DNA of 64,000 nt from positions 32,001 through 96,000 of IMG/VR virus record IMGVR_UViG_3300020045_004509. One strand, 5' to 3'. The notes under the pieces are model-generated. The model saw nothing but the letters and a program-made list of their open reading frames with translations. It did not search any database and had not been told where the DNA came from. The position numbers and the translations under genes are program-made. Positions 1,879 through 27,759 of the stretch are shown here, piece by piece. The DNA is from a virus. Position 1 is the stretch's first letter. Every line of letters starts with the position of its first letter.

Positions 1879-3784
1879 AATCGTATATTGTTCAGATTGT
1901 AAATTCTGTAAGAAAGACAAACTTGGGATCAGTTTTTGTCATCATCCGAAATCTAAAATGATTAATTTTATTGATGAACATGCAACTAAAACATGTGAAA
2001 CAGTAAGAAGTAAAGATTTTTATTGCGGATTGTTCAAGAAAAAGTTCTGGTTAGTGTTATAATTACTTATCTTAAACAAAGGAACTTCATATGCATATTC
2101 TAATCAATTATTGCGGAACTAATAGTCTTACTGGCGCGGTGTCTTTCCAGATTTACAATGTTGGTATAGTGCCTGATAAAATTGTTTTTGATATCGATGT
2201 AGTGATGGTTGCAACTGATGTGAATAAAGAATTGGAAAAAGCTAACAAGGTATTTTCATCACGAAACATCAGCATGTCAATTGGACATGTCGAAAAAGAT
2301 TTGTATAAAGAAGAGCTTATTAGCAATCATAGCGCGCAGTGTTATTCTTGATGTTATAATTACTTATCTTAAACTTCAAAGGAACTAACATGTGTACAGT
2401 TGGGCAACTTATCGTAAAACTTCAGCAACTTCCTCAAGATGCAATCGTTGAAGTTCTTGAAGAATATACTGGATTATACTATACAAGTACAGAATTCAAA
2501 CCTATTGATCTTGAATATGGAATTTCTGTTTTGGATTATACTGATGACGATTCCATAAATTTTCATGGTAAAATCTTTGTTCACTTGGAAGCATGAATAT
2601 GATTGACTATAAAAATCCATTCTTTACTCCAGAAGAAAATCTTGAAATGGCAGTCGGAGAAATTAAATTCAAAGACTTAGTAATAACAAATCTTCGGAAT
2701 CAGATCAAACAACTTAGGTCTATCGTTGATCCAAGTTTGACTGATGAAGAAGTTCATCAAATTCAACAGAAGTATCAAAAATGACCAAAGCAATCGCAAC
2801 CAAACGCGCTAAAATTAAAGCGAAGATTCAAGTATTGAACGATGATCTTCGCAAACTTCAATCTGAATGTCTTCATGAAAATGCTACCCATGTTCACAAA
2901 GGTTCTACTGGAAACTATGATCCATCATGTGATTCATATTGGGTTGAACATGGATGTCCTGATTGTGACAAATTTTGGACAACCGAAAAATAAACTTAAA
3001 GGAAACTAAATGAACTTTCTCGCTCTTCTTACCCTTATTTTTATCACTCTGAAACTAATGGGCTTCATTGCTTGGTCATGGTTCTGGGTACTGTCTCCTT
3101 TGATTCCAGCATTCATTCTGATCGTCATGGGATTTTCATATATCATTGCCCTGATTTCTAGTAGTTTTGCTGATTTCTTTAAAGGTCGGAAATGAAGACT
3201 ATTGCACAACTTGCTGAAGAAGCTGGTTTCATGCAAACTTGGTTTTCTGAATCTGGTGATAATATGGAAAATGAAATCCGAAAGTTTGCTAAATTGCTTA
3301 TTGAAGAATTAGCCAACAGGGTGCAACATGCTATTGATATTACTGGAATGGCAAGTGATGAGTATGAATATGGTTGGGATGATGGTATGCGAGTTGCTAT
3401 CAACACAATTCAAAGGAGTTTATAATGCATGAAGCTGGAAAAGGTGATGCTCCACGTCATGGGGCAGACATGGTTGCATATTCAAATAACTATGATGCAA
3501 TCTTTAGGAAACCAACTATTACCCATGTTGCAATTAAGACTGATGATAAGATTTGGTCTTTACCAAAACCAAATCGGCATCATAATGTTCTTCGGATGAT
3601 CAATAATCTGTTTGTTGACCGAAATTATGAAACTGAAGTTCAAGGGTTTCTTGATTCAAATGGTAGGTTTTTGAATCGTAAAGATGCATTTATCTTGGCT
3701 GAATCTAATGGGCAATTAGATCGAAGCAATCATGGGGATAATTGCTATAATGGAAATGAATTATTTTCGGAGGATTTGTGGTAG
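1871..3784 (+). CDS. Run of small early hypothetical proteins (1871-2062, 2091-2351, 2390-2596, 2593-2784, 2781-2993, 3010-3195 membrane protein, 3192-3425, 3425-3784)
   Basis: Overlapping stop/start junctions and SD sites; 3425-3784 ends in the common phage motif QGFLDSNGRFLNRKDAF...LFSEDLW. Confidence 0.7.
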
Positions 3785-3814
3785 AAGCTAATAGAAAAGT
3801 TGATTGCATTGATG

Positions 3815-5872
3815 TTACACAACTGTTATTTTAACAAACGCAGTCCAAGCCGACCCATTCCAATACCGTTCCCATATTTGATTAGTTTGTACTGGTCTAT
3901 ACAATTGATATGCTTGACTATCACCAGATACTGCCCTATATGTCGTAAATTTGCCTGCGATACCTCCTGGAAAAGACGCAGCATCAGCACCACCAATTTG
4001 AAAGTGGGTTTCTACTCCTGATGCAAAGTTGGACAATGGATACGAAAAACTTGCTGCTGGAGCATAATAAATTACACTTGATGGTATTGGATACCAATCA
4101 AACGGAGCGGTTCCGTTAAGATTGATATATTCAGAAACTGCGTTATATGGTGAGTTGTAGGATTTAAATCTAAATCCTACCTTCCAATTTCCAGTTGTTG
4201 GAATTGACCCAAAATCTCTTGTTGGTGTAGTTTGTTGAACCCATTTACTACCATCATATAAACAAACACCACAATTATAATCAGTCATTAATGCCCCAGT
4301 AGATGGAGTGCTAATATCTGATAATCCACACACAATAACTGAAGAAAACGGAACAAGTATGCCTCCAGCTACGGTAACATTAGCTTTTGTTACGCCAGTT
4401 GTTTCCCTTCCTATATTCCAATTTGATCCATACAGATTAACAGTACCAGTACCCGATCCCCCAGATTGTTCTCGTATAACAATTGTCTTTAGTGTAGAAG
4501 TAGGAAACAAGGTAGAGTAATTAGACGCATTATTAATTGTCAATTCTCGAATTCCATCATTTTTAACTTTTACCAACGTATGGGCTACATCACTTGTTCT
4601 TTTATCAACAATAGTAATACTATTGATTTTTAAAGTGTTTATTGTAGATTTACTAACAACAATAGACGCACTATTAGCTCCAACATAGGTATCATCATAC
4701 TCAACATATCCATTAGACAAATTAAGATTATCAACATTCACATTATAAATATAAACTGGGGTTCTATTACCACCCCCAACAGTTCTCATCGCCTTACCCC
4801 CAAAATTTGATACGTTTATACAACCCGCAATTCCTGTTGTGAGAGGGTCATATGATCCAACTTGAATAATAGCTTCAGCAAAATCGCCATATACACCATC
4901 AATGTTTATCTTGTCAGCTTTATATCCTGATAATGTATAAACCACAGCACCCCGCCACGTATTTTGCCCATCTTTTGTTTGACCTCTAATATTTTTTATA
5001 GACACGTTTTCGATATTTTGGGCAACTGTGCCAACTCCGGCCCATTCTACACCACACAATAAAGCAACCATATCATCGTTAGTGTACCCACTGATGTTTT
5101 CAATAAGTCCATTGCTAGATGATCCTGTTACTCCATCTCGACGTTTACCGCCTGTAGGCGTAATTGCATCAATTGTCTGGTCAAATTTAATATCATGGAA
5201 GTGAAAATTATTACAATTCCAGTGATTTATACCATGGCCTCGCACTGTCTTAATTGTGAGATTACCAACTTCCATTCCATTTACATTCACTAAATAGAAT
5301 GCCTTACTTATATCAAATGCGGCACCATCAGCTACTTGATCTCCTTGATTCACATCGTTTCCGTTAACAATACCACCAATCCATTTGATATTAGTCAATC
5401 CTGTTGTCACTGTACGAATCATGAAGCATCTAGCCATATCTTTCAAATAGATTTCTGCATTATCATCACATAAAACAGTTAACCCAGAAGTCAAATATAT
5501 AGGAAAACCAATAGTATATCTGGCAGGGCCAACAAGACGAATAGTTTTATTACCAGAAGAAAAAGCTGTATTCAGTACAGAAGATAAATCTTGGGTAGTA
5601 GATAGACTTTTTGCTGCAGTAATTTGACCAGATGTCATATAATTAAATATACTATCGTATTCATCTAATTTATCTTGCACATCAGTAGCAACAGCCCCAA
5701 CCCCTCCATGCATATACCCCACCATTCCAGCCCCAGAACTACTACCTAATTCTGAAGCTCCAATCAAATTAGTTGTATTTGCAGGAAGGGTTAAAGTAAC
5801 ATCAGAAGCAGTATTAGTTGCTGCAAGGGCTACTGAACCACCAAGGGGTGTTTTTAGTTTTAGTTTAGACAT
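3815..5872 (-). CDS. Tailspike/tail fibre with beta-helix (pectate lyase-like) domain and C-terminal knob
   Basis: N-terminal anchor SSSGAGMVGY..GGVGAVATDVQDKL, beta-helix-like repeats (DGV...NDDMVAL), C-terminal AYQLY...IWERYWNGSAWTAF. Confidence 0.75.
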   Translation of the reverse strand: MSKLKLKTPLGGSVALAATNTASDVTLTLPANTTNLIGASELGSSSGAGMVGYMHGGVGAVATDVQDKLDEYDSIFNYMTSGQITAAKSLSTTQDLSSVLNTAFSSGNKTIRLVGPARYTIGFPIYLTSGLTVLCDDNAEIYLKDMARCFMIRTVTTGLTNIKWIGGIVNGNDVNQGDQVADGAAFDISKAFYLVNVNGMEVGNLTIKTVRGHGINHWNCNNFHFHDIKFDQTIDAITPTGGKRRDGVTGSSSNGLIENISGYTNDDMVALLCGVEWAGVGTVAQNIENVSIKNIRGQTKDGQNTWRGAVVYTLSGYKADKINIDGVYGDFAEAIIQVGSYDPLTTGIAGCINVSNFGGKAMRTVGGGNRTPVYIYNVNVDNLNLSNGYVEYDDTYVGANSASIVVSKSTINTLKINSITIVDKRTSDVAHTLVKVKNDGIRELTINNASNYSTLFPTSTLKTIVIREQSGGSGTGTVNLYGSNWNIGRETTGVTKANVTVAGGILVPFSSVIVCGLSDISTPSTGALMTDYNCGVCLYDGSKWVQQTTPTRDFGSIPTTGNWKVGFRFKSYNSPYNAVSEYINLNGTAPFDWYPIPSSVIYYAPAASFSYPLSNFASGVETHFQIGGADAASFPGGIAGKFTTYRAVSGDSQAYQLYRPVQTNQIWERYWNGSAWTAFVKITVV

Positions 5873-23169: not shown

Positions 23170-24717
23170 TTATATTATTGGTACAACTACTGTATCAGAA
23201 CCAAACACTAAACTATCCCCATTCATTGTTGGGGTTCCATCAGCAACATGCATTTCATCAATAATTCCAGGATCAAACGCATAATCTTCAGCAAAATACG
23301 CATCTGTTAATTGAGCAATATTCTGAACAATATTTCCATCAAACACTACAGAATCATTTCCAAATCCAACATCAAATTCAAATGTCTGTTTATATGGGGT
23401 TACATACAGATTATTTTGATTCAGAACAGATTGAAGATTCTTATCAATTGTCTTACCAATAGAATCTGTTACTACAATAGAATCAAATAGATTCACGTTA
23501 ATAGTATTACATGTATGGATCAGTTCAATTTCATTATTGATGTCAATTACTGCAATCTTATCAAGGAATGAAAAATATTTCACCCCCGCAGGATGAACGA
23601 TCTTATGAACATTCTGATAATCTGCAACTTGATTTTGGGTATGGATTACATATGAAAATAACTGATAATATAATCCGTCATGAAGTCTAATATTAGGGGA
23701 TGAAATGGTTCCCTTATCAGAAATCAATTTACCAAACGTTTTAGAAATCAGGGAAGTATCAAGTTTTATAATAGTTTGAGAATCAAACCACTGTTCAGGG
23801 GAATTTGCATCAGCTTCCCCTGAAAATGGGGAAATAGCAAATGTGTTATTTGAATCATATATCGCATTATTTCCTAAAAATATCACATTATTATTTCCAA
23901 AGGTAATATTAAAAGGAAGGGATTGATTATTTGTCGTGAACCCATAGTCAATGATATTAACTTTTTCTAATGTACCTTGATCCCCAACCCTTGCAACTTG
24001 ACAAATAGTCTTTTTTTGGTTTGTGTCAATAGTAAAACATTGTCCAACTTGCCAATACTTTCCCCCATCTATAACAGAAATAGAAGATGGAAATGTTGAA
24101 AACAATGGCCCAAAGAAATCAAGATGATCGTCAGTATATACTTTTACTAATTGATTTTGTGTTACTGAAAGATCAATATATGATGTAAAGAAGATTCTGT
24201 TTAGGGTAAGATTCTTTTCAACTTTGTTTATTTTGAATTTACGGGGGGAACCATCAAATTGAATGTAGTTTGATGAATCTAAAATGACTCCATCTTGTAC
24301 TTGAACAGTGACAATCGTATCCTGAACCCATCGACCATCAGATGCCTTTAGAATGTTTTCCTTGGGATGTTCAATTGATATTTCTTCTCCATAGACAATT
24401 CTAAAAAGAAGTTTTATGGAGTTTTCTGAACCTTTGGATTTGTATAGATCATAGACATGCTTTGCGACTAATCTACGATCAACAGCAATATTCTTTGGAA
24501 TACCCTTTAGTTCTTCAAAGAATGATTCAATAAAATCTAAAGCTGAACTATCTGAATCGGCAAAAGCTAAAACATCTTGAATGCATTTCTGAATCGCGGT
24601 TTCTTCTTGGAACTCATAGTAGTAATCTAAGAACGAAATAAATAGAGGATTATTATCTCTAATATGACGGGGAATCTGATTTCTAACAAGATGCTTGGCA
24701 GTAAATCCAGTATTCAT
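23170..24717 (-). CDS. Baseplate wedge protein (gp7-like)
   Basis: QIPRHIRD.NPLFISFLDYYYEF, LYKSKGSENSIKLLFRIVYGE, ILKASDGRW, YYQLFSYVI, HPAG. Confidence 0.75.
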   Translation of the reverse strand: MNTGFTAKHLVRNQIPRHIRDNNPLFISFLDYYYEFQEETAIQKCIQDVLAFADSDSSALDFIESFFEELKGIPKNIAVDRRLVAKHVYDLYKSKGSENSIKLLFRIVYGEEISIEHPKENILKASDGRWVQDTIVTVQVQDGVILDSSNYIQFDGSPRKFKINKVEKNLTLNRIFFTSYIDLSVTQNQLVKVYTDDHLDFFGPLFSTFPSSISVIDGGKYWQVGQCFTIDTNQKKTICQVARVGDQGTLEKVNIIDYGFTTNNQSLPFNITFGNNNVIFLGNNAIYDSNNTFAISPFSGEADANSPEQWFDSQTIIKLDTSLISKTFGKLISDKGTISSPNIRLHDGLYYQLFSYVIHTQNQVADYQNVHKIVHPAGVKYFSFLDKIAVIDINNEIELIHTCNTINVNLFDSIVVTDSIGKTIDKNLQSVLNQNNLYVTPYKQTFEFDVGFGNDSVVFDGNIVQNIAQLTDAYFAEDYAFDPGIIDEMHVADGTPTMNGDSLVFGSDTVVVPII

Positions 24718-24753
24718 TATTGCGGTTTCTTCTTGAAATTCATAATAGTAATC
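24718..24753 (-). repeat. 36-nt synonymous-variant copy of 24592-24627; predicted TnpB guide
   Basis: GATTACTATTATGAATTTCAAGAAGAAACCGCAATA vs gene GATTACTACTATGAGTTCCAAGAAGAAACCGCGATT; 31/36 identical, all differences at third codon positions. Confidence 0.85.
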
Positions 24754-25987
24754 ATGTTGTTTTATCAGGATTAATAAAACTAACTAAACATTTCAACGAA
24801 TCTACCTTTGGTGTTTCCAGAAAAGGATTTAATAACTCTCGATGTTTGTAATCGGATAATTCTTCCGATGAAAATCCATAAAGATCATCTAGACCTTTAT
24901 ATAGTATATTTATAGCAGCATTTAGGTCACGATCATGAACAGTATTACATTCAGGACAAATCCATTCCCGTACCGATAGATTCATAGAATCCATCTTGTT
25001 ACCACAACAAGAACAAGTCTTTGAAGATGGAAAGAATCTATCAATTTGATGAAATGTCTTTCCATACCAATTAGACTTGTATGAAATCATTTTTGTTAAT
25101 GTTGACCAAGCAGCATCATGAATAGATTTAGATAGTTTCCTATTCTTAATCATTCCAGCTACATTTAAATCTTCCATCACAATAGTATCATAATTATTCA
25201 CTAGCCAAGAACTTAAATTGTGATATACAAAATTTCTCTGGTTAGAAACTTTCTGATACAGTCTAGCAACTTTAAGTTTCATCTGCTTGTATCTGGAACT
25301 ACCTTTAACTTTTCTACTAAATGCGCGTTGCGCTTTCTTTAGCTTCGCTTGGGTTTTGCGAAACCATCTAGGATTACTTATTTTCATACCACTTGACATG
25401 ATACAAAGGTCTTTTAATCCTAAATCAATACCGATTGAACGACCAGTATTTTGTTTCAATTCTATAGGTTCTTCAACAAGAATTGAAACAAAATATTGAT
25501 TGGATTTATTTTTGGAAACTGTAACAGACTTAGGTTTACCTTGAAATCCACGATTTACTACCATCTTCATAGAAGTCATTTTTGGAAGTTTGATTCTTCC
25601 TGAATCTAAATCAATACTATCATGGTATCTACCCATAGACGCAAATGGTATTCTAAATGAATCATTAGAAACACCTTTCTTTTTGAACGATGGTCTTCCG
25701 AGTTTTATTTTACGCTTCTTGGAAAAATATTGGGTCTTGAAATCTATCCAATCGCGGGTCTTCTGTTGTAGTGCATATGATATAGCATCATGCATCCATT
25801 CATGCCCCACCATATCTTTGATGATCTTTTCATCTTGGGGAATACACGGTCCTTTGTCGTAGTTATTAAAACTAGCAACAAATTGATTCCATAGAAAACG
25901 TACTGCTCCAAAATTTCTATCAAGAAAGTTAGCTTGATCCTTAGTAGGATAGATTCTATATTTGAATGCCTTTAGAACTGTTTTCAT
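24752..25987 (-). CDS. tnpB: RNA-guided endonuclease TnpB (IS200/IS605 family), no transposase adjacent
   Basis: KAFKYRIYPT HTH, RuvC-I GIDLG, RuvC-II VMEDL, Zn finger CSCCG...CPECN, RuvC-III DRDLNAAINI; all three acidic catalytic residues present. Confidence 0.93.
   Translation of the reverse strand: MKTVLKAFKYRIYPTKDQANFLDRNFGAVRFLWNQFVASFNNYDKGPCIPQDEKIIKDMVGHEWMHDAISYALQQKTRDWIDFKTQYFSKKRKIKLGRPSFKKKGVSNDSFRIPFASMGRYHDSIDLDSGRIKLPKMTSMKMVVNRGFQGKPKSVTVSKNKSNQYFVSILVEEPIELKQNTGRSIGIDLGLKDLCIMSSGMKISNPRWFRKTQAKLKKAQRAFSRKVKGSSRYKQMKLKVARLYQKVSNQRNFVYHNLSSWLVNNYDTIVMEDLNVAGMIKNRKLSKSIHDAAWSTLTKMISYKSNWYGKTFHQIDRFFPSSKTCSCCGNKMDSMNLSVREWICPECNTVHDRDLNAAINILYKGLDDLYGFSSEELSDYKHRELLNPFLETPKVDSLKCLVSFINPDKTT
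24754..24880 (-). ncRNA. Putative omega/reRNA scaffold overlapping the tnpB 3' end
   Basis: Hairpins ATCGGA/TCCGAT, AAACAT/ATGTTT, CCTTT/AAAGG and terminal GTT-A-GTTTTATTA-ATCC-TGATAAAAC-AAC just before the guide; boundaries approximate. Confidence 0.55.
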
Positions 25988-25989
25988 TT

Positions 25990-27759
25990 TTATGATTGAT
26001 TAACTTGTATATTTAGATCAGAAGTTTCAGAAACCAAAATATTATTCTTGGATGGAACAATGATCTTACTATCGGGGGTTACTGTAATCTTCAACACAGT
26101 ATCATCAGATGACAAAATATTATCAGTAATTGTAATAATACCAGCATTGTAATCAATCGTCCCAATATTTTCTTTTACGTTTAATCTTGTATTATTGACT
26201 ATCTGATATGCATAGATACTACCAGATGAATCTGTTAGATACACATCAATATCAGGGAAATCAGTCAGCTTAAACTTATTAGATACCACATTAGAAGTTT
26301 TAGAATTGGATGGTACTAATGAAGTATTAAAGTCAAATACATATTGATTTGATACCCCAAAGATAAAATCAATTTCTTTTCTTAGATAAAACTTTGTATC
26401 ATTAGCCAAGAATGATTGGTCAATATTATCAATGAACCCAATCAACTTTGAATATTCAAAAGTAGAATTGAATCTATTCAAAGTAGATGTAGTATATGCC
26501 ACAATATTACTTTGTACCTTAGTTGTTACATCTGATGCACTCATTACGGTTCTATCAGCATCATATTTAACTTTGGTATCAATGATCAGATACATATATT
26601 CAGGATCAAGAAACTCATGGGATAATGCCAGAACAGATTTCTTTTTCAGAACAGAATCAATTGTGTTCTTTTGTTCAGTCGATAATGTTTCAGTAGTTCC
26701 TGCTAATTTTACCGAAATGAATACCTTTCCATAGATTGGATTTGCTAAAGTTTCCCCCCCAAATACAGCAATAGTATCTAAAGGATAGATAGCAGAAATG
26801 ATAGATTCATAATCCTTTTCTGTGACAGCCCGATCTTGCGTCAGAACTTTTGCTTGGGCGTTCAACCGAATCGAATCATTGGATTCAGAAACCATTCCTC
26901 CAAATGCTTCTTGAATAAGGGTAGTTGTTACATTAGAATAACCATTTACTGAGTCTGCAAACGTAAATGATTTAGTTCCATTAGCCAAATCCCCATTAGT
27001 TACTACATAATCAAGAATAACAATATTACCATTAGTCAATTCTGTTCCAATGATACCATCCCCAAAATATACTTCATAGTTCAGGGTTTCGTTGATCTTA
27101 ACAAAATATGCATTGGTTGTTGAAGTAACATCGGTGATAGATTCATATCGTTTGAATTCAGTTACTGTTGTGGTTGTACCTGATTCTTGAACAGATACCT
27201 TCAACAATGAAATATCAACATACTTAGATGGAATAACAAAACGTTGAGGGGTTGATGTTTCCACAACATATCTAAAAGTTGTATTAGTTCCTTCATAGAT
27301 ACTGATCGATGGAAAGATGTATCTTCCCCCGCTTGGAAAAATTGTAATCGCTTCCCTATTGATGAATGTTGTTATATCGTTTGTTGCTAATGTTGCATTG
27401 AATCTTGCATTCTTTCCTAATGTCAGAAAATCAGGAAGAGGGGTTGTTGGAAAGACTTCCAATGATACCTTTGCTTGAGGGGCAACATAAGATTTTGGGG
27501 TATATCCAAGACGTTTTGCAATTAAGGATAAAGATTCTTTCTTGACAGCAGTATCCAAGAACATTTCTTGAACTAACATATTACCAATGACTGCATTGTA
27601 ATGGGTGTTGTATGCAAGAAGATCAATTAGAACAGATAGTCCAGAACCTTCAAAGTTGTAATCGGTGAATTCAGGTTTAGATGAAAGAAAGGTCTTTAGA
27701 TTGGCTTTGATGGTGTCAAAATCAAGCTCAGTGACCCGAATATTAGATGGGATGCTCAA
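25990..27759 (-). CDS. 6: Baseplate wedge subunit gp6
   Basis: ELDFDTIKANLK.FL...EFTDYNFEGSGLSVLIDLLAYNTHY, QDRAVT..DY, YGKVFIS. Confidence 0.93.
   Translation of the reverse strand: MSIPSNIRVTELDFDTIKANLKTFLSSKPEFTDYNFEGSGLSVLIDLLAYNTHYNAVIGNMLVQEMFLDTAVKKESLSLIAKRLGYTPKSYVAPQAKVSLEVFPTTPLPDFLTLGKNARFNATLATNDITTFINREAITIFPSGGRYIFPSISIYEGTNTTFRYVVETSTPQRFVIPSKYVDISLLKVSVQESGTTTTVTEFKRYESITDVTSTTNAYFVKINETLNYEVYFGDGIIGTELTNGNIVILDYVVTNGDLANGTKSFTFADSVNGYSNVTTTLIQEAFGGMVSESNDSIRLNAQAKVLTQDRAVTEKDYESIISAIYPLDTIAVFGGETLANPIYGKVFISVKLAGTTETLSTEQKNTIDSVLKKKSVLALSHEFLDPEYMYLIIDTKVKYDADRTVMSASDVTTKVQSNIVAYTTSTLNRFNSTFEYSKLIGFIDNIDQSFLANDTKFYLRKEIDFIFGVSNQYVFDFNTSLVPSNSKTSNVVSNKFKLTDFPDIDVYLTDSSGSIYAYQIVNNTRLNVKENIGTIDYNAGIITITDNILSSDDTVLKITVTPDSKIIVPSKNNILVSETSDLNIQVNQS

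What the first reader, a model, noticed from the sequence alone, without database searches (positions are those of the whole stretch)
24592..25987. Domesticated TnpB as an RNA-guided homing endonuclease: guide matches the neighbouring baseplate gene, which is synonymously recoded
Seen: an intact tnpB starts 2 nt after the gp6 stop, with no tnpA and no room for a separate left end. Right after its terminal hairpin, the 36 nt up to the next ATG (24753-24718) read GAT TAC TAT TAT GAA TTT CAA GAA GAA ACC GCA ATA. The downstream gene has GAT TAC TAC TAT GAG TTC CAA GAA GAA ACC GCG ATT at 24627-24592. Both encode DYYYEFQEETAI; all 5 differences are synonymous, 3 fall in the first 18 nt, and the gene carries the C/G-ending codon in 4 of 5 despite the AT-rich genome. 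Known: TnpB guides come from the sequence just past the right end, and free-standing phage homing endonucleases cut neighbouring conserved genes of competitors while their own allele is immune. Inference: the guide targets the unrecoded allele in co-infecting relatives, driving homing or exclusion. The TAM would be the bases before the target (TTCTTA here), which may also be recoded.
Basis: partly seen in the sequence, partly recalled or inferred. Interest (0 to 1): 0.92.

Follow-up and report, generated by a model that had tools for sequence, protein, structure and literature searches.

The report
Phage TnpB aimed at baseplate gene
A T4-like phage carries a transposase-less RNA-guided nuclease gene (TnpB) whose guide spells a conserved stretch of the neighbouring baseplate gene, while the phage's own copy of that stretch is re-spelled; this is the layout expected of a natural "cut the rival allele, spare your own" element, but no cutting has been shown.

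Summary
On the minus strand an intact 411-aa tnpB (25987-24752) starts 2 nt after the gp6-like stop. The 36 nt before the wedge-gene ATG (24753-24718) match codons 31-42 of that gene (24627-24592) at 31 of 36 bases. All 5 differences are third-position and synonymous.

- The TnpB belongs to a clade seen at 60% identity or more only in viral contigs. Two relatives carry a serine-recombinase tnpA, so it is IS607-type.
- In relatives the right end finishes at stop codon + TTAY. The guide therefore starts 6 nt later than proposed, at 24747.
- The TAM-equivalent of the resident copy is GATTAC, not TTCTTA. One verified empty site and two inferred sites read WATAT.
- The resident gene differs from the guide at positions 3, 9 and 12, uses locally rare codons, and has a unique Glu-to-Asp change that turns a TAM-like hexamer into the element's own non-TAM end.
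- The omegaRNA scaffold shows covariation, and the RuvC and zinc-finger residues are intact.

Against: no susceptible allele or tnpB-less relative was found, none of 9 clade relatives shares the layout, and RNA ends and cleavage are untested.

Earlier scan notes report the same layout in other phages. I found no paper describing it.

The parts
25990..27759 (-). gp6-like baseplate wedge gene (589 aa); left homology arm of the cassette
   Evidence: Pfam Gp6-like_1st and Gp6_C-III are above their cut-offs. The ORF is listed.
26010..26016 (-). CTAAATA, a late-promoter-like motif inside the gp6 3' end, 22 nt upstream of the tnpB ATG
   Evidence: The sequence is. TAAATA lies within 60 nt upstream of ORF starts in 18 of its 58 occurrences (63 ORFs of 100 aa or more in the window). 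Its function is inferred.
24752..25987 (-). tnpB, 411 aa, intact; starts 2 nt after the gp6 stop
   Evidence: HTH_OrfB_IS605, OrfB_IS605 and Cas12f1-like_TNB match. It aligns to ISDra2 TnpB chains 8h1j/8bf8 at E about 4e-66, and D188 and E272 align to ISDra2 D191 and E278. D188, E272, D354, C325, C328, C344 and C347 are invariant in 30 clade proteins.
24907..24914 (-). TATAAATA inside tnpB, ending 6 nt before the first omegaRNA helix; possible internal late promoter
   Evidence: It is one of only 3 TATAAATA in the window. It is absent at this place in the 8 aligned relatives. Its function was not tested.
24748..24901 (-). omegaRNA scaffold (7 helices) overlapping the tnpB 3' end and finishing with the conserved right-end terminus, stop codon + TTAC (24751-24748)
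   Evidence: RNAalifold on 9 clade sequences gave 45 pairs, 14 of them with compensatory changes. 96.5% of cells are paired, 0 of 500 shuffles reach the observed values, and slid controls give 1-5 compensatory pairs. The window keeps 44 of 45 pairs. Stop + TTAY is present in all clade loci printed.
24728..24747 (-). predicted 20-nt guide template, TATTATGAATTTCAAGAAGA
   Evidence: This is the first sequence after the conserved right end. Relatives lose all similarity exactly here. The empty site in L260/L261 places the insertion boundary at the equivalent point in the L006 lineage. RNA ends were not measured.
24718..24753 (-). copy 1 of the 36-nt repeat (right-end terminus GATTAC plus 30 nt of wedge-gene-like sequence), in frame with and abutting the wedge ATG
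23170..24717 (-). baseplate wedge gene (515 aa, PF23786); right homology arm. Codons 1-42 act as the resident, re-spelled head
   Evidence: Pfam match. Homologues are 38-49% identical, and Y32, Y33, Y34, E35 and F36 are invariant in 14 sequences.
24592..24627 (-). copy 2 (codons 31-42 of the wedge gene). GATTAC (24627-24622) is the TAM-equivalent, and TACTATGAGTTCCAAGAAGA (24621-24602) is the target-equivalent with mismatches at guide positions 3, 9 and 12
   Evidence: Codon choice lies in the lowest 0.86% of encodings expected from this phage's codon usage. Asp31 is unique: Glu or Gln stands there in 13 of 13 aligned homologues and in 42 of 42 viral loci.

Best explanation
This is an immobilised IS607-type TnpB-omegaRNA cassette. 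It has no transposase and no left end, and it sits between gp6 and the baseplate wedge gene, where it behaves like a free-standing homing endonuclease that recognises its target by RNA.

Proposed mechanism, step by step:
1. Late transcription runs from the gp6 3' end through tnpB and its 3' omegaRNA scaffold into the wedge gene. No terminator is predicted on the way. (Inferred.)
2. TnpB binds the scaffold, whose 3' extension (from 24747) spells codons 32-38 of the wedge gene in this phage's preferred codons. (The guide position is shown by comparison with relatives. The RNA itself was not measured.)
3. In a co-infecting relative whose wedge gene carries that spelling behind a WATAT-type TAM, the complex would cut about 16-22 bp into the target. 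(Inferred.)
4. The break would be repaired from the cassette-bearing genome, with gp6 and the wedge gene as homology arms. That would copy in tnpB, the guide and the re-spelled gene head. If no repair occurred, the rival genome would be destroyed. (Inferred.)
5. The resident gene is immune for two reasons. It has three mismatches in the first 12 guide positions. A Glu-to-Asp change plus a TAC codon also turns the TAM-like hexamer into GATTAC, the same non-TAM that ends the element. (The sequence differences are shown. Their effect is inferred.)

Whether the phage benefits or the cassette is purely selfish cannot be told.
For: Layout:
- tnpB starts 2 nt after the gp6 stop. In relatives the wedge ATG lies 0-2 nt after the upstream stop in six printed loci: L016, L020, L023, L024, L026, L030.
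- No tnpA was found in the 122.7-kb record.
- No terminator-like site lies between tnpB and the wedge start.

The nuclease looks active:
- Three Pfam domains match.
- The RuvC and zinc-finger residues are invariant.
- pN/pS against L006 is 0.29.

The guide RNA machinery is conserved:
- The scaffold has 45 pairs, 14 of them compensatory; 0 of 500 shuffles reach this, and slid controls give 1-5.
- The window keeps 44 of 45 pairs.

Guide boundary:
- Stop + TTAY followed by unrelated sequence is seen in all 10 loci of 61% identity or more and in L107.
- The empty site L260/L261 confirms the boundary in the L006 lineage.

Target choice:
- The copied stretch is the most conserved motif of the protein; YYYEF is invariant in 14 of 14 sequences.

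Self-immunity signals:
- All 5 differences are synonymous, p about 1e-4 if unconstrained.
- The resident encoding lies in the lowest 0.86% of expected encodings, while copy 1 is at the 35th percentile.
- G/C-ending codons rise locally: 6 of 12 in codons 31-42, against 6 of 30 before and 3 of 18 after (read from the codon list).
- Asp31 is unique.

TAM:
- The left flanks read CTATAT (verified empty site), GAATAT and CAATAT (by reading-frame continuity).
- The right ends read [AG]ATTAT.
- 10 of 42 relatives' wedge genes have AATAT and 26 of 42 have AATAC at this place. None has T at -4.
Against: - No susceptible allele and no tnpB-less close relative was found. There was no hit for the wedge protein's own peptide words in viral contigs. 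The best homologues among 5.8 billion proteins are 38-49% identical. The head, residues 1-60, matched only itself. The 20-nt predicted target had 0 hits in viral contigs.
- The 42 distant relatives match the guide at only 16-25 of 36 bases. The guide's slight edge over the resident copy (29 better, 8 equal, 5 worse) is what AT-rich codon use alone would give, and many of those rows are near-duplicates.
- None of the 9 other clade loci has a second near-match to its guide. In them the guide is simply the insertion flank.
- Two of the 5 differences (guide positions 27 and 30) lie beyond a 16-20-nt guide. This fits general divergence between two alleles as well as targeted escape.
- The TAM rests on one verified and two inferred sites, in TnpBs that are 61-73% identical to this one. 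The loop that aligns to ISDra2 T123, which contacts TAM position -4 (PMC11061315 passage), reads FASM here. It reads GQ in L006 and L102 and AASM in L106.
- The GATTAC shared by the right end and the resident gene could come from gene conversion between the repeats.
- Copy 1 also supplies the only purine-rich stretch upstream of the wedge ATG, so it could be kept as a 5' leader.
- RNA ends, cleavage and homing are all untested.
Confidence: 0.5

Rival explanations
1. Rearrangement scar around a decaying solo tnpB. An IS607 element once landed in or next to a wedge gene. Recombination, possibly between two diverged co-infecting phages, then produced a viable genome that kept tnpB, its right end and 30 nt of the old flank. 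The 'guide' is only whatever lay beside the right end. It has no living target, and TnpB has no present role.
For: - Solo tnpB genes without tnpA are common in this clade (L006, L100, L101, L104 and L105). In the 9 relatives tested the guide is merely the insertion flank.
- The differences are spread evenly over the repeat, 3 in the first 20 guide positions and 2 in the last 10, as expected for two diverged alleles.
- No target was found anywhere.
- A 5-nt ATGAA microhomology is shared by the tnpB start and the wedge start (read), which suits illegitimate recombination.
Against: - tnpB is full length with every catalytic and zinc residue. The scaffold keeps 44 of 45 pairs.
- A neutral non-coding copy 1 should have gathered changes at codon positions 1 and 2, and it has none.
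- The rare-codon burst is local to codons 31-42.
- The one amino-acid peculiarity of the motif, Asp31, falls exactly on the TAM position that separates insertion sites from right ends.
- Even under this reading, the re-spelling implies the complex once cut this sequence.
Confidence: 0.33
2. Regulatory or structural role in cis. Copy 1 is kept as the 5' leader and ribosome-binding region of the wedge gene. Alternatively, TnpB-omegaRNA binds the resident near-match and tunes wedge-gene expression in the manner of TldR repressors.
For: - Copy 1 holds the only purine-rich run (AAGAAGAAA) within 20 nt of the wedge ATG, while other genes here show AAGGA-like motifs.
- tnpB, the scaffold and the wedge gene are probably one transcript.
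Against: - TldRs are nuclease-dead (PMC13565253 passage). This protein keeps D188, E272 and D354.
- Three mismatches in the first 12 guide positions and a non-TAM argue against stable binding to the resident site.
- A leader function does not explain why the leader is an in-frame, synonymous copy of codons 31-42.
Confidence: 0.07
3. An ordinary, still-mobile IS607 copy whose flank happens to resemble the gene.
For: Relatives L102 and L106 are complete tnpA-tnpB elements that interrupt small phage genes.
Against: - There is no tnpA in the window or in the whole 122.7-kb record, which is 70% complete.
- Only 2 nt separate the gp6 stop from the tnpB ATG, so there is no left end.
- A 31-of-36, in-frame, all-synonymous match is not chance.
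Confidence: 0.02

Closest known systems
ISDra2 TnpB with right-end (omega) RNA, IS200/IS605 family (Karvelis 2021, PMC8612924; PDB 8h1j, 8bf8, 8exa)
   Same: - It is the best natural structural relative by sequence, E about 4e-66 over residues 6-366; the top hit overall, 9yyg, is an AI-designed nuclease.
- It has the same domain set and the same RuvC residues (D191 and E278 align to D188 and E272).
- Its guide RNA is likewise made of the gene's 3' end plus about 16 nt of flank (passages).
   Different: - ISDra2 moves with a Y1 TnpA, uses the TAM TTGAT, and its guide matches the empty donor site, so self and target differ by presence of the transposon.
- Here there is no transposase and no left end.
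- The inferred TAM is WATAT-like.
- Self and target would differ by base substitutions in a gene 126 nt away.
IS607-family TnpB with reRNA (ISFba1; Cell Res 2024, PMC11061315)
   Same: - Close relatives of this tnpB sit directly behind a serine-recombinase tnpA.
- The TAM lies next to the left end and the guide next to the right end (passages).
- ISFba1 cuts about 16 nt (non-target strand) and 22 nt (target strand) from the TAM (passage).
   Different: - Published IS607 TnpBs use the G-rich TAMs AGGAG or GAGGG, and the elements end in GG (passages).
- This viral clade ends in TTAY and inserts after WATAT.
- By sequence the protein is nearer ISDra2 than chain 8iaz (E 2.5e-34).
Free-standing phage homing endonucleases (T4 SegF, SegB, Seg/Mob; 'intronless homing', reviewed in PMC13565253)
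   Same: - The nuclease gene is wedged between two conserved genes.
- The target lies in the neighbouring conserved gene.
- The resident allele is spared through sequence substitutions.
- The expected outcome is co-conversion or marker exclusion in mixed infection (passages).
   Different: - Those enzymes recognise DNA by protein (GIY-YIG, HNH and similar families, recalled).
- Here recognition would be by a templated RNA, and the cassette carries its own copy of the target as the guide.
- Table 1 of the review lists substitution-based discrimination only for protein endonucleases.
TnpA-independent spread of IS605 by TnpB in plasmid populations ('non-restorative homing'; bioRxiv 2025, PMC11870625: search listing and abstract only; summarised in PMC13565253)
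   Same: TnpB cuts the homologous molecule that lacks the element, and repair copies the element in without any transposase.
   Different: There the target is the empty insertion site, so the difference is presence or absence of the transposon, and the setting is a plasmid. Here the target is inside an essential phage gene, and a re-spelled resident copy is needed.
TldR, TnpB-like nuclease-dead repressors (bioRxiv 10.1101/2023.11.30.569447: listing and abstract; PMC13565253 passage)
   Same: It is a domesticated, transposase-less TnpB with an adjacent guide that matches a host locus.
   Different: TldRs have lost the RuvC residues and bind promoters. This protein keeps them, and its guide matches a coding motif only imperfectly.

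Membership tests
TnpB (OMEGA RNA-guided nuclease) | HTH_OrfB_IS605, OrfB_IS605 (RuvC) and zinc-ribbon TNB domains | tested here: met
   All three score above the Pfam gathering cut-offs: 52.8, 94.3 and 87.1 bits.
TnpB (OMEGA RNA-guided nuclease) | Intact RuvC triad and CxxC...CxxC zinc finger | tested here: met
   D188 and E272 align to ISDra2 D191 and E278. D354 lies in the HDRD motif; its ISDra2 counterpart D361 is recalled. D188, E272, D354, C325, C328, C344 and C347 are invariant in 30 clade proteins.
TnpB (OMEGA RNA-guided nuclease) | Structured omegaRNA scaffold overlapping the 3' end of the gene | tested here: met
   45 pairs, 14 of them compensatory; 0 of 500 shuffles reach this; slid controls give 1-5. 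The window keeps 44 of 45 pairs. No Rfam family matched.
TnpB (OMEGA RNA-guided nuclease) | Guide read from the DNA just past the right end | tested here: inconclusive
   The right-end boundary is well defined by comparison (stop + TTAY; empty site). The RNA 3' end was not measured, and no sequencing run could be listed.
TnpB (OMEGA RNA-guided nuclease) | TAM- and guide-dependent DNA cleavage | not testable with these tools
   This needs biochemistry or a plasmid interference assay.
IS607-family insertion sequence (mobile element) | Serine-recombinase tnpA next to tnpB | tested here: not met
   There is none in the window ORF list and none in the 122.7-kb record. It is present in relatives L102 and L106 (Resolvase domain).
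IS607-family insertion sequence (mobile element) | Left end upstream of the genes | tested here: not met
   Only 2 nt lie between the gp6 stop and the tnpB ATG.
IS607-family insertion sequence (mobile element) | Conserved right end | tested here: met
   The scaffold and the stop + TTAC terminus align with 8 relatives.
Free-standing homing endonuclease gene (intronless homing) | Nuclease gene inserted between conserved genes that abut in relatives | tested here: met
   gp6 and wedge gene identities are. The upstream stop is followed within 0-2 nt by the wedge ATG in six printed relatives.
Free-standing homing endonuclease gene (intronless homing) | Recognition site in a nearby conserved gene, with the resident allele differing at that site | tested here: met
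   The guide-position sequence matches codons 32-41 at 25 of 30 bases, 126 nt downstream. The mismatches fall at guide positions 3, 9, 12, 27 and 30, and the TAM-equivalent is GATTAC. Recognition itself is inferred.
Free-standing homing endonuclease gene (intronless homing) | Presence/absence polymorphism among relatives with a susceptible allele in those that lack the gene | tested here: inconclusive
   No close relative exists in any collection searched.
Free-standing homing endonuclease gene (intronless homing) | Protein-only target recognition by a classical endonuclease fold | tested here: not met
   The protein is a TnpB. It may therefore work like a homing endonuclease but is not a member of those families.
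TldR (nuclease-dead TnpB repressor) | Loss of RuvC catalytic residues | tested here: not met
   The catalytic residues are retained.
Phage TnpB 'home-and-rescue' cassettes (class proposed in earlier notes of this scan, unpublished) | Transposase-less tnpB at a conserved phage gene, original codons in the guide position, and a re-spelled copy that keeps the gene whole | tested here: met
   The layout is shown. The class itself rests on unchecked AI notes.

The most novel reading that the evidence does not exclude
This is a natural RNA-guided gene drive in a T4-like phage. An IS607-derived TnpB has given up transposition. It spreads, or kills rivals, by cutting the common spelling of an invariant baseplate-wedge motif in co-infecting relatives. 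It carries with it a resistant gene head in which both the seed and the TAM have been edited out, the TAM through a Glu-to-Asp change. Together with the similar layouts noted elsewhere in this scan, it would define a recurrent class of 'home-and-rescue' TnpB cassettes that arose independently in IS605- and IS607-type lineages.
Probability: 0.42. Interest if true: 0.88.

Novelty: new variant of a known kind. Interest (0 to 1): 0.74.

Why it matters
TnpB is known to keep transposons in place by cutting the empty site, and phage homing endonucleases are known to cut a rival's allele of a neighbouring gene. A TnpB that does the second job would join these two fields.

- It would show that an RNA-guided nuclease can live on as a free-standing homing or exclusion element after losing its transposase.
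- It would give a concrete intermediate between selfish transposon nucleases and RNA-guided systems used in conflicts between genomes.
- It would explain why many phages keep solo tnpB genes.

The case makes sharp, cheap predictions: the RNA 3' end, a WATAT-type TAM, and cutting of the copy-1 spelling but not the resident one.

Tried and rejected
Searches for close relatives, none found:
- Megablast of the 4.6-kb locus against phage records gave no match.
- tblastn of the wedge protein and of TnpB against phage records gave nothing above about 46% and 41% local identity.
- The wedge protein's own peptide words gave no hit in viral contigs.
- A protein search of residues 1-60 of the wedge protein returned only the query.
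- The metagenome scan with TnpB returned only the 73% lineage and relatives of about 40% identity or less over most of the protein.

Other searches that led nowhere:
- Public sequencing runs: none was listed.
- Rfam gave only chance-level hits.
- Empty sites for L106 and L102 were sought through their left-flank proteins. Only the element-bearing contigs came back, so those two TAMs stay inferred.
- The predicted target was searched as DNA in viral contigs and gave 0 hits.

Ideas rejected:
- The tnpB N-terminus is not a fusion with the wedge gene's first codons. MKPVLK- and MVPVLK-type starts are normal in the closest TnpBs.
- TATAAATA is not this phage's general late promoter. It occurs only 3 times against 6.6 expected. 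TAAATA/CTAAATA fits better.
The right end runs 6 nt further than that reading assumes.

Not attempted: structure prediction, complex prediction and paper supplements.

Full report
WHAT IS THERE.
The window is bases 32001-96000 of a 122,706-base IMG/VR viral record that is estimated 70% complete. It is AT-rich, with 35.7% G+C and 26% G/C at third codon positions. The genes of interest lie on the minus strand:
- A gp6-like baseplate gene at 27759-25990, matching Pfam Gp6-like_1st and Gp6_C-III.
- tnpB at 25987-24752, 411 aa, matching HTH_OrfB_IS605, OrfB_IS605 and Cas12f1-like_TNB.
- A baseplate wedge gene at 24717-23170, 515 aa, matching PF23786.

The gp6 stop and the tnpB ATG are 2 nt apart. 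In relatives the upstream gene's stop is followed within 0-2 nt by the wedge ATG in six printed loci: L016, L020, L023, L024, L026, L030. tnpB therefore sits exactly where the wedge gene would normally begin.

THE REPEAT.
24753-24718 and 24627-24592 agree at 31 of 36 bases and both read DYYYEFQEETAI.
- The five differences are at repeat positions 9, 15, 18, 33 and 36. All are third codon positions and all are synonymous.
- Only 17 of 108 possible single-base changes in these codons are synonymous, so five unconstrained changes would all be silent with p of about 1e-4.
- The next best match of the 34-mer in the whole window is 22 of 34.
- Copy 1 directly abuts the wedge ATG and is in frame with it. 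No ATG, GTG or TTG lies upstream in that frame, so it is not translated as part of the gene.

WHICH TnpB.
- The protein has thousands of relatives: 3586 with E of 1e-60 or better among 8000 scored candidates, the nearest 76% identical.
- In collections whose DNA I could read, relatives of 60% identity or more occur only in viral contigs, up to 73%.
- The best of 80 kept prokaryotic genome loci is 46% identical, and the best isolated phage is 41%.
- In two relatives, L102 and L106, a 197-198-aa Resolvase-domain ORF lies directly upstream. The clade is therefore IS607-type.
- By sequence, however, it is nearer ISDra2 TnpB (E about 4e-66) than chain 8iaz (E 2.5e-34).
- D188 and E272 align with ISDra2 D191 and E278, whose mutation abolishes activity.
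- These two residues, D354 and four zinc-finger cysteines are invariant in 30 clade proteins.
- pN/pS against the L006 gene is 0.29, with synonymous sites near saturation.
- No tnpA is present in the window or in the whole record, and there is no room for a left end. As a transposon this copy is immobile.

GUIDE RNA AND ITS START.
- The last 150 nt or so of tnpB fold into seven helices that are conserved in nine clade sequences. 45 pairs are predicted, 96.5% of cells are paired, and 14 pairs show compensatory changes. None of 500 shuffles reaches these values, and slid controls give 1-5 compensatory pairs.
- The window keeps 44 of 45 pairs. Its own fold has a modest z-score of -1.78.
- In all ten clade loci of 61% identity or more, and in L107, the stop codon is followed by TTAT (TTAC in L099 and in the window). 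Similarity ends there.
- One true empty site fixes this boundary. L260 and L261 are 96% identical to L006 in the downstream protein but lack tnpB, and they read CTATAT immediately before the sequence that follows TTAT in the L006 lineage.
- The guide template in the window therefore begins at 24747, not at 24753.
- The predicted 20-nt guide is TATTATGAATTTCAAGAAGA. The resident gene reads TACTATGAGTTCCAAGAAGA, with mismatches at guide positions 3, 9 and 12. The other two differences are at positions 27 and 30.

TAM.
- The verified left flank is CTATAT (L006 lineage).
- In L102 and L106 the complete elements interrupt small genes. Reading-frame continuity across the element places the left flanks at GAATAT and CAATAT. 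I could not find empty sites for these two.
- The element's own right ends read [AG]ATTAT. The position that consistently separates insertion sites from right ends is therefore -4, which is A in the sites and T in the ends.
- An earlier scan note on another phage gave the clade's insertion motif as A-A/T-A-T-A-T (e1-5324460). That agrees, but it is not independent proof.
- The resident wedge gene has GATTAC here. That is T at -4, produced by a GAT (Asp) codon, and C at -1.
- Asp at this position is unique. The 13 aligned homologues and all 42 viral loci in which the motif could be located have Glu or Gln (9 of 51 loci were dropped because the motif was not found). 10 of the 42 read AATAT, 26 read AATAC and 6 read AGTAT.
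- Caveat: the protein loop that aligns with ISDra2 T123, which contacts TAM position -4 according to PMC11061315, reads FASM in the window, GQ in L006 and L102, and AASM in L106. TAM identity between these enzymes is assumed, not shown.

IS THE RESIDENT COPY 'RECODED'?
- Codon usage over 38 ORFs (14,520 codons) gives GAG 7% of Glu codons, GCG 9% of Ala, TAC 20% of Tyr and TTC 25% of Phe.
- The resident encoding of the 12 residues lies in the lowest 0.86% of 100,000 encodings drawn from that usage. Copy 1 lies at the 35th percentile.
- G/C-ending codons make up 6 of 12 in codons 31-42, against 6 of 30 before and 3 of 18 after (codon list). Six or more of 12 occurs in 6.7% of all 12-codon windows.
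- Copy 1 therefore looks like the ordinary spelling and the resident copy like the derived one.
- This test was chosen after seeing the data, and two of the five changes lie outside a 16-20-nt guide. A head taken from a diverged allele therefore remains possible.
- Either way, the absence of any change at codon positions 1 and 2 of the non-coding copy 1 argues against neutral drift after an in-place duplication.

EXPRESSION.
- A CTAAATA motif lies 22 nt upstream of the tnpB ATG, at 26016-26010. TAAATA is found within 60 nt upstream of ORF starts in 18 of its 58 occurrences.
- No terminator-like site lies between tnpB and the wedge start.
- A TATAAATA (24914-24907), unique to the window among the nine aligned sequences, ends 6 nt before helix 1.
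- Late co-transcription of tnpB, the scaffold, the guide and the wedge gene is thus likely but inferred.

HOW GENERAL.
- Among the nine other clade loci tested, no guide has a second near-match within the locus. Only the window exceeds its own null.
- A wider scan of 154 loci put the window third, at 27 of 30. Above it came L146, an exact repeat of about 65 nt flanking tnpB that resembles a tRNA 3' end. L148 was second, with a diverged duplicate of about 90 nt of a gene's C-terminal coding region on both sides of a tnpB.
- Earlier notes of this scan describe the same 'guide = displaced original codons, re-spelled copy keeps the gene whole' layout in several other phages with IS605-type TnpBs. 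I did not re-test those.

LITERATURE.
- Full-text searches for TnpB with homing endonuclease and phage, with marker exclusion, and with phage genomes, homing or co-infection found no report of a TnpB that tells self from target by substitutions in a neighbouring phage gene.
- The 2026 review PMC13565253 (passages read) lists substitution-based 'intronless homing' only for protein endonucleases.
- A 2026 cyanophage preprint (10.64898/2026.02.14.705889, passages read) only speculates on roles for a phage tnpB.
- Supplements were not consulted.

VERDICT.
The best reading is a transposase-less IS607-type TnpB cassette that acts, or recently acted, as an RNA-guided free-standing homing or exclusion nuclease against the common spelling of the wedge-gene motif. 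The resident gene would be protected by seed mismatches and loss of the TAM (confidence 0.5). The main rival is a rearrangement scar around a solo tnpB with no living target (0.33). The decisive data are missing: RNA ends, TAM, cleavage, and relatives with and without the cassette.

Noticed in passing
window 24907-24914 (minus strand): A TATAAATA inside tnpB ends 6 nt before the first omegaRNA helix (start 24901). None of the 8 aligned relatives has it. It could be an internal late promoter for the omegaRNA and the wedge gene, or chance in AT-rich coding sequence.
   Followed up: partly
window 26010-26016 (minus strand): A CTAAATA lies in the gp6 3' end, 22 nt upstream of the tnpB ATG. TAAATA-type motifs precede many ORFs in this window, so this is probably the wedge gene's former late promoter, now driving tnpB.
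   Followed up: partly
L148 3724-3845 and 5286-5405: A tnpB (43% identical) is flanked on both sides by diverged copies of about 90 nt of the C-terminal coding region of a minus-strand gene (GCYCLW...TAKRYH). The differences are both synonymous and non-synonymous. The functional gene's stop abuts the tnpB stop. This may be another duplicate-bearing cassette with a different geometry.
   Followed up: partly
L146 about 3925-3990 and 5229-5292: A near-exact direct repeat of about 65 nt, containing a tRNA T-arm-like GGTTCAAATCC-type motif and a downstream promoter-like stretch, flanks a tnpB (40% identical).
   Followed up: no
L006 3894-5248; L260/L261 about 2400-2500: In the 73% lineage tnpB sits between gp25 and a 1105-aa baseplate-module gene. 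It is inserted just after an ATAAATA late-promoter-like motif and 20 nt before the gene's ATG. The tnpB-less relatives differ from the guide at positions 12, 16 and 20.
   Followed up: partly
L102 3335-5237; L106 about 3334-5231: Complete IS607-type elements (serine tnpA + tnpB) interrupt small phage genes. Reading frames continue across the element if it is removed. Their ends are AT-rich (TTAT), not the GG reported for IS607.
   Followed up: partly
(viral versus prokaryote collections): TnpBs 60% or more identical to this one were found only in viral contigs. The best of 80 kept prokaryotic loci is 46% identical. This suggests a lineage that circulates among phages.
   Followed up: partly
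window 25444-25498: A 20-nt, 95% complementary inverted repeat inside tnpB coding sequence (I2) draws chance-level microRNA-family hits in Rfam. Its meaning is unknown.
   Followed up: no
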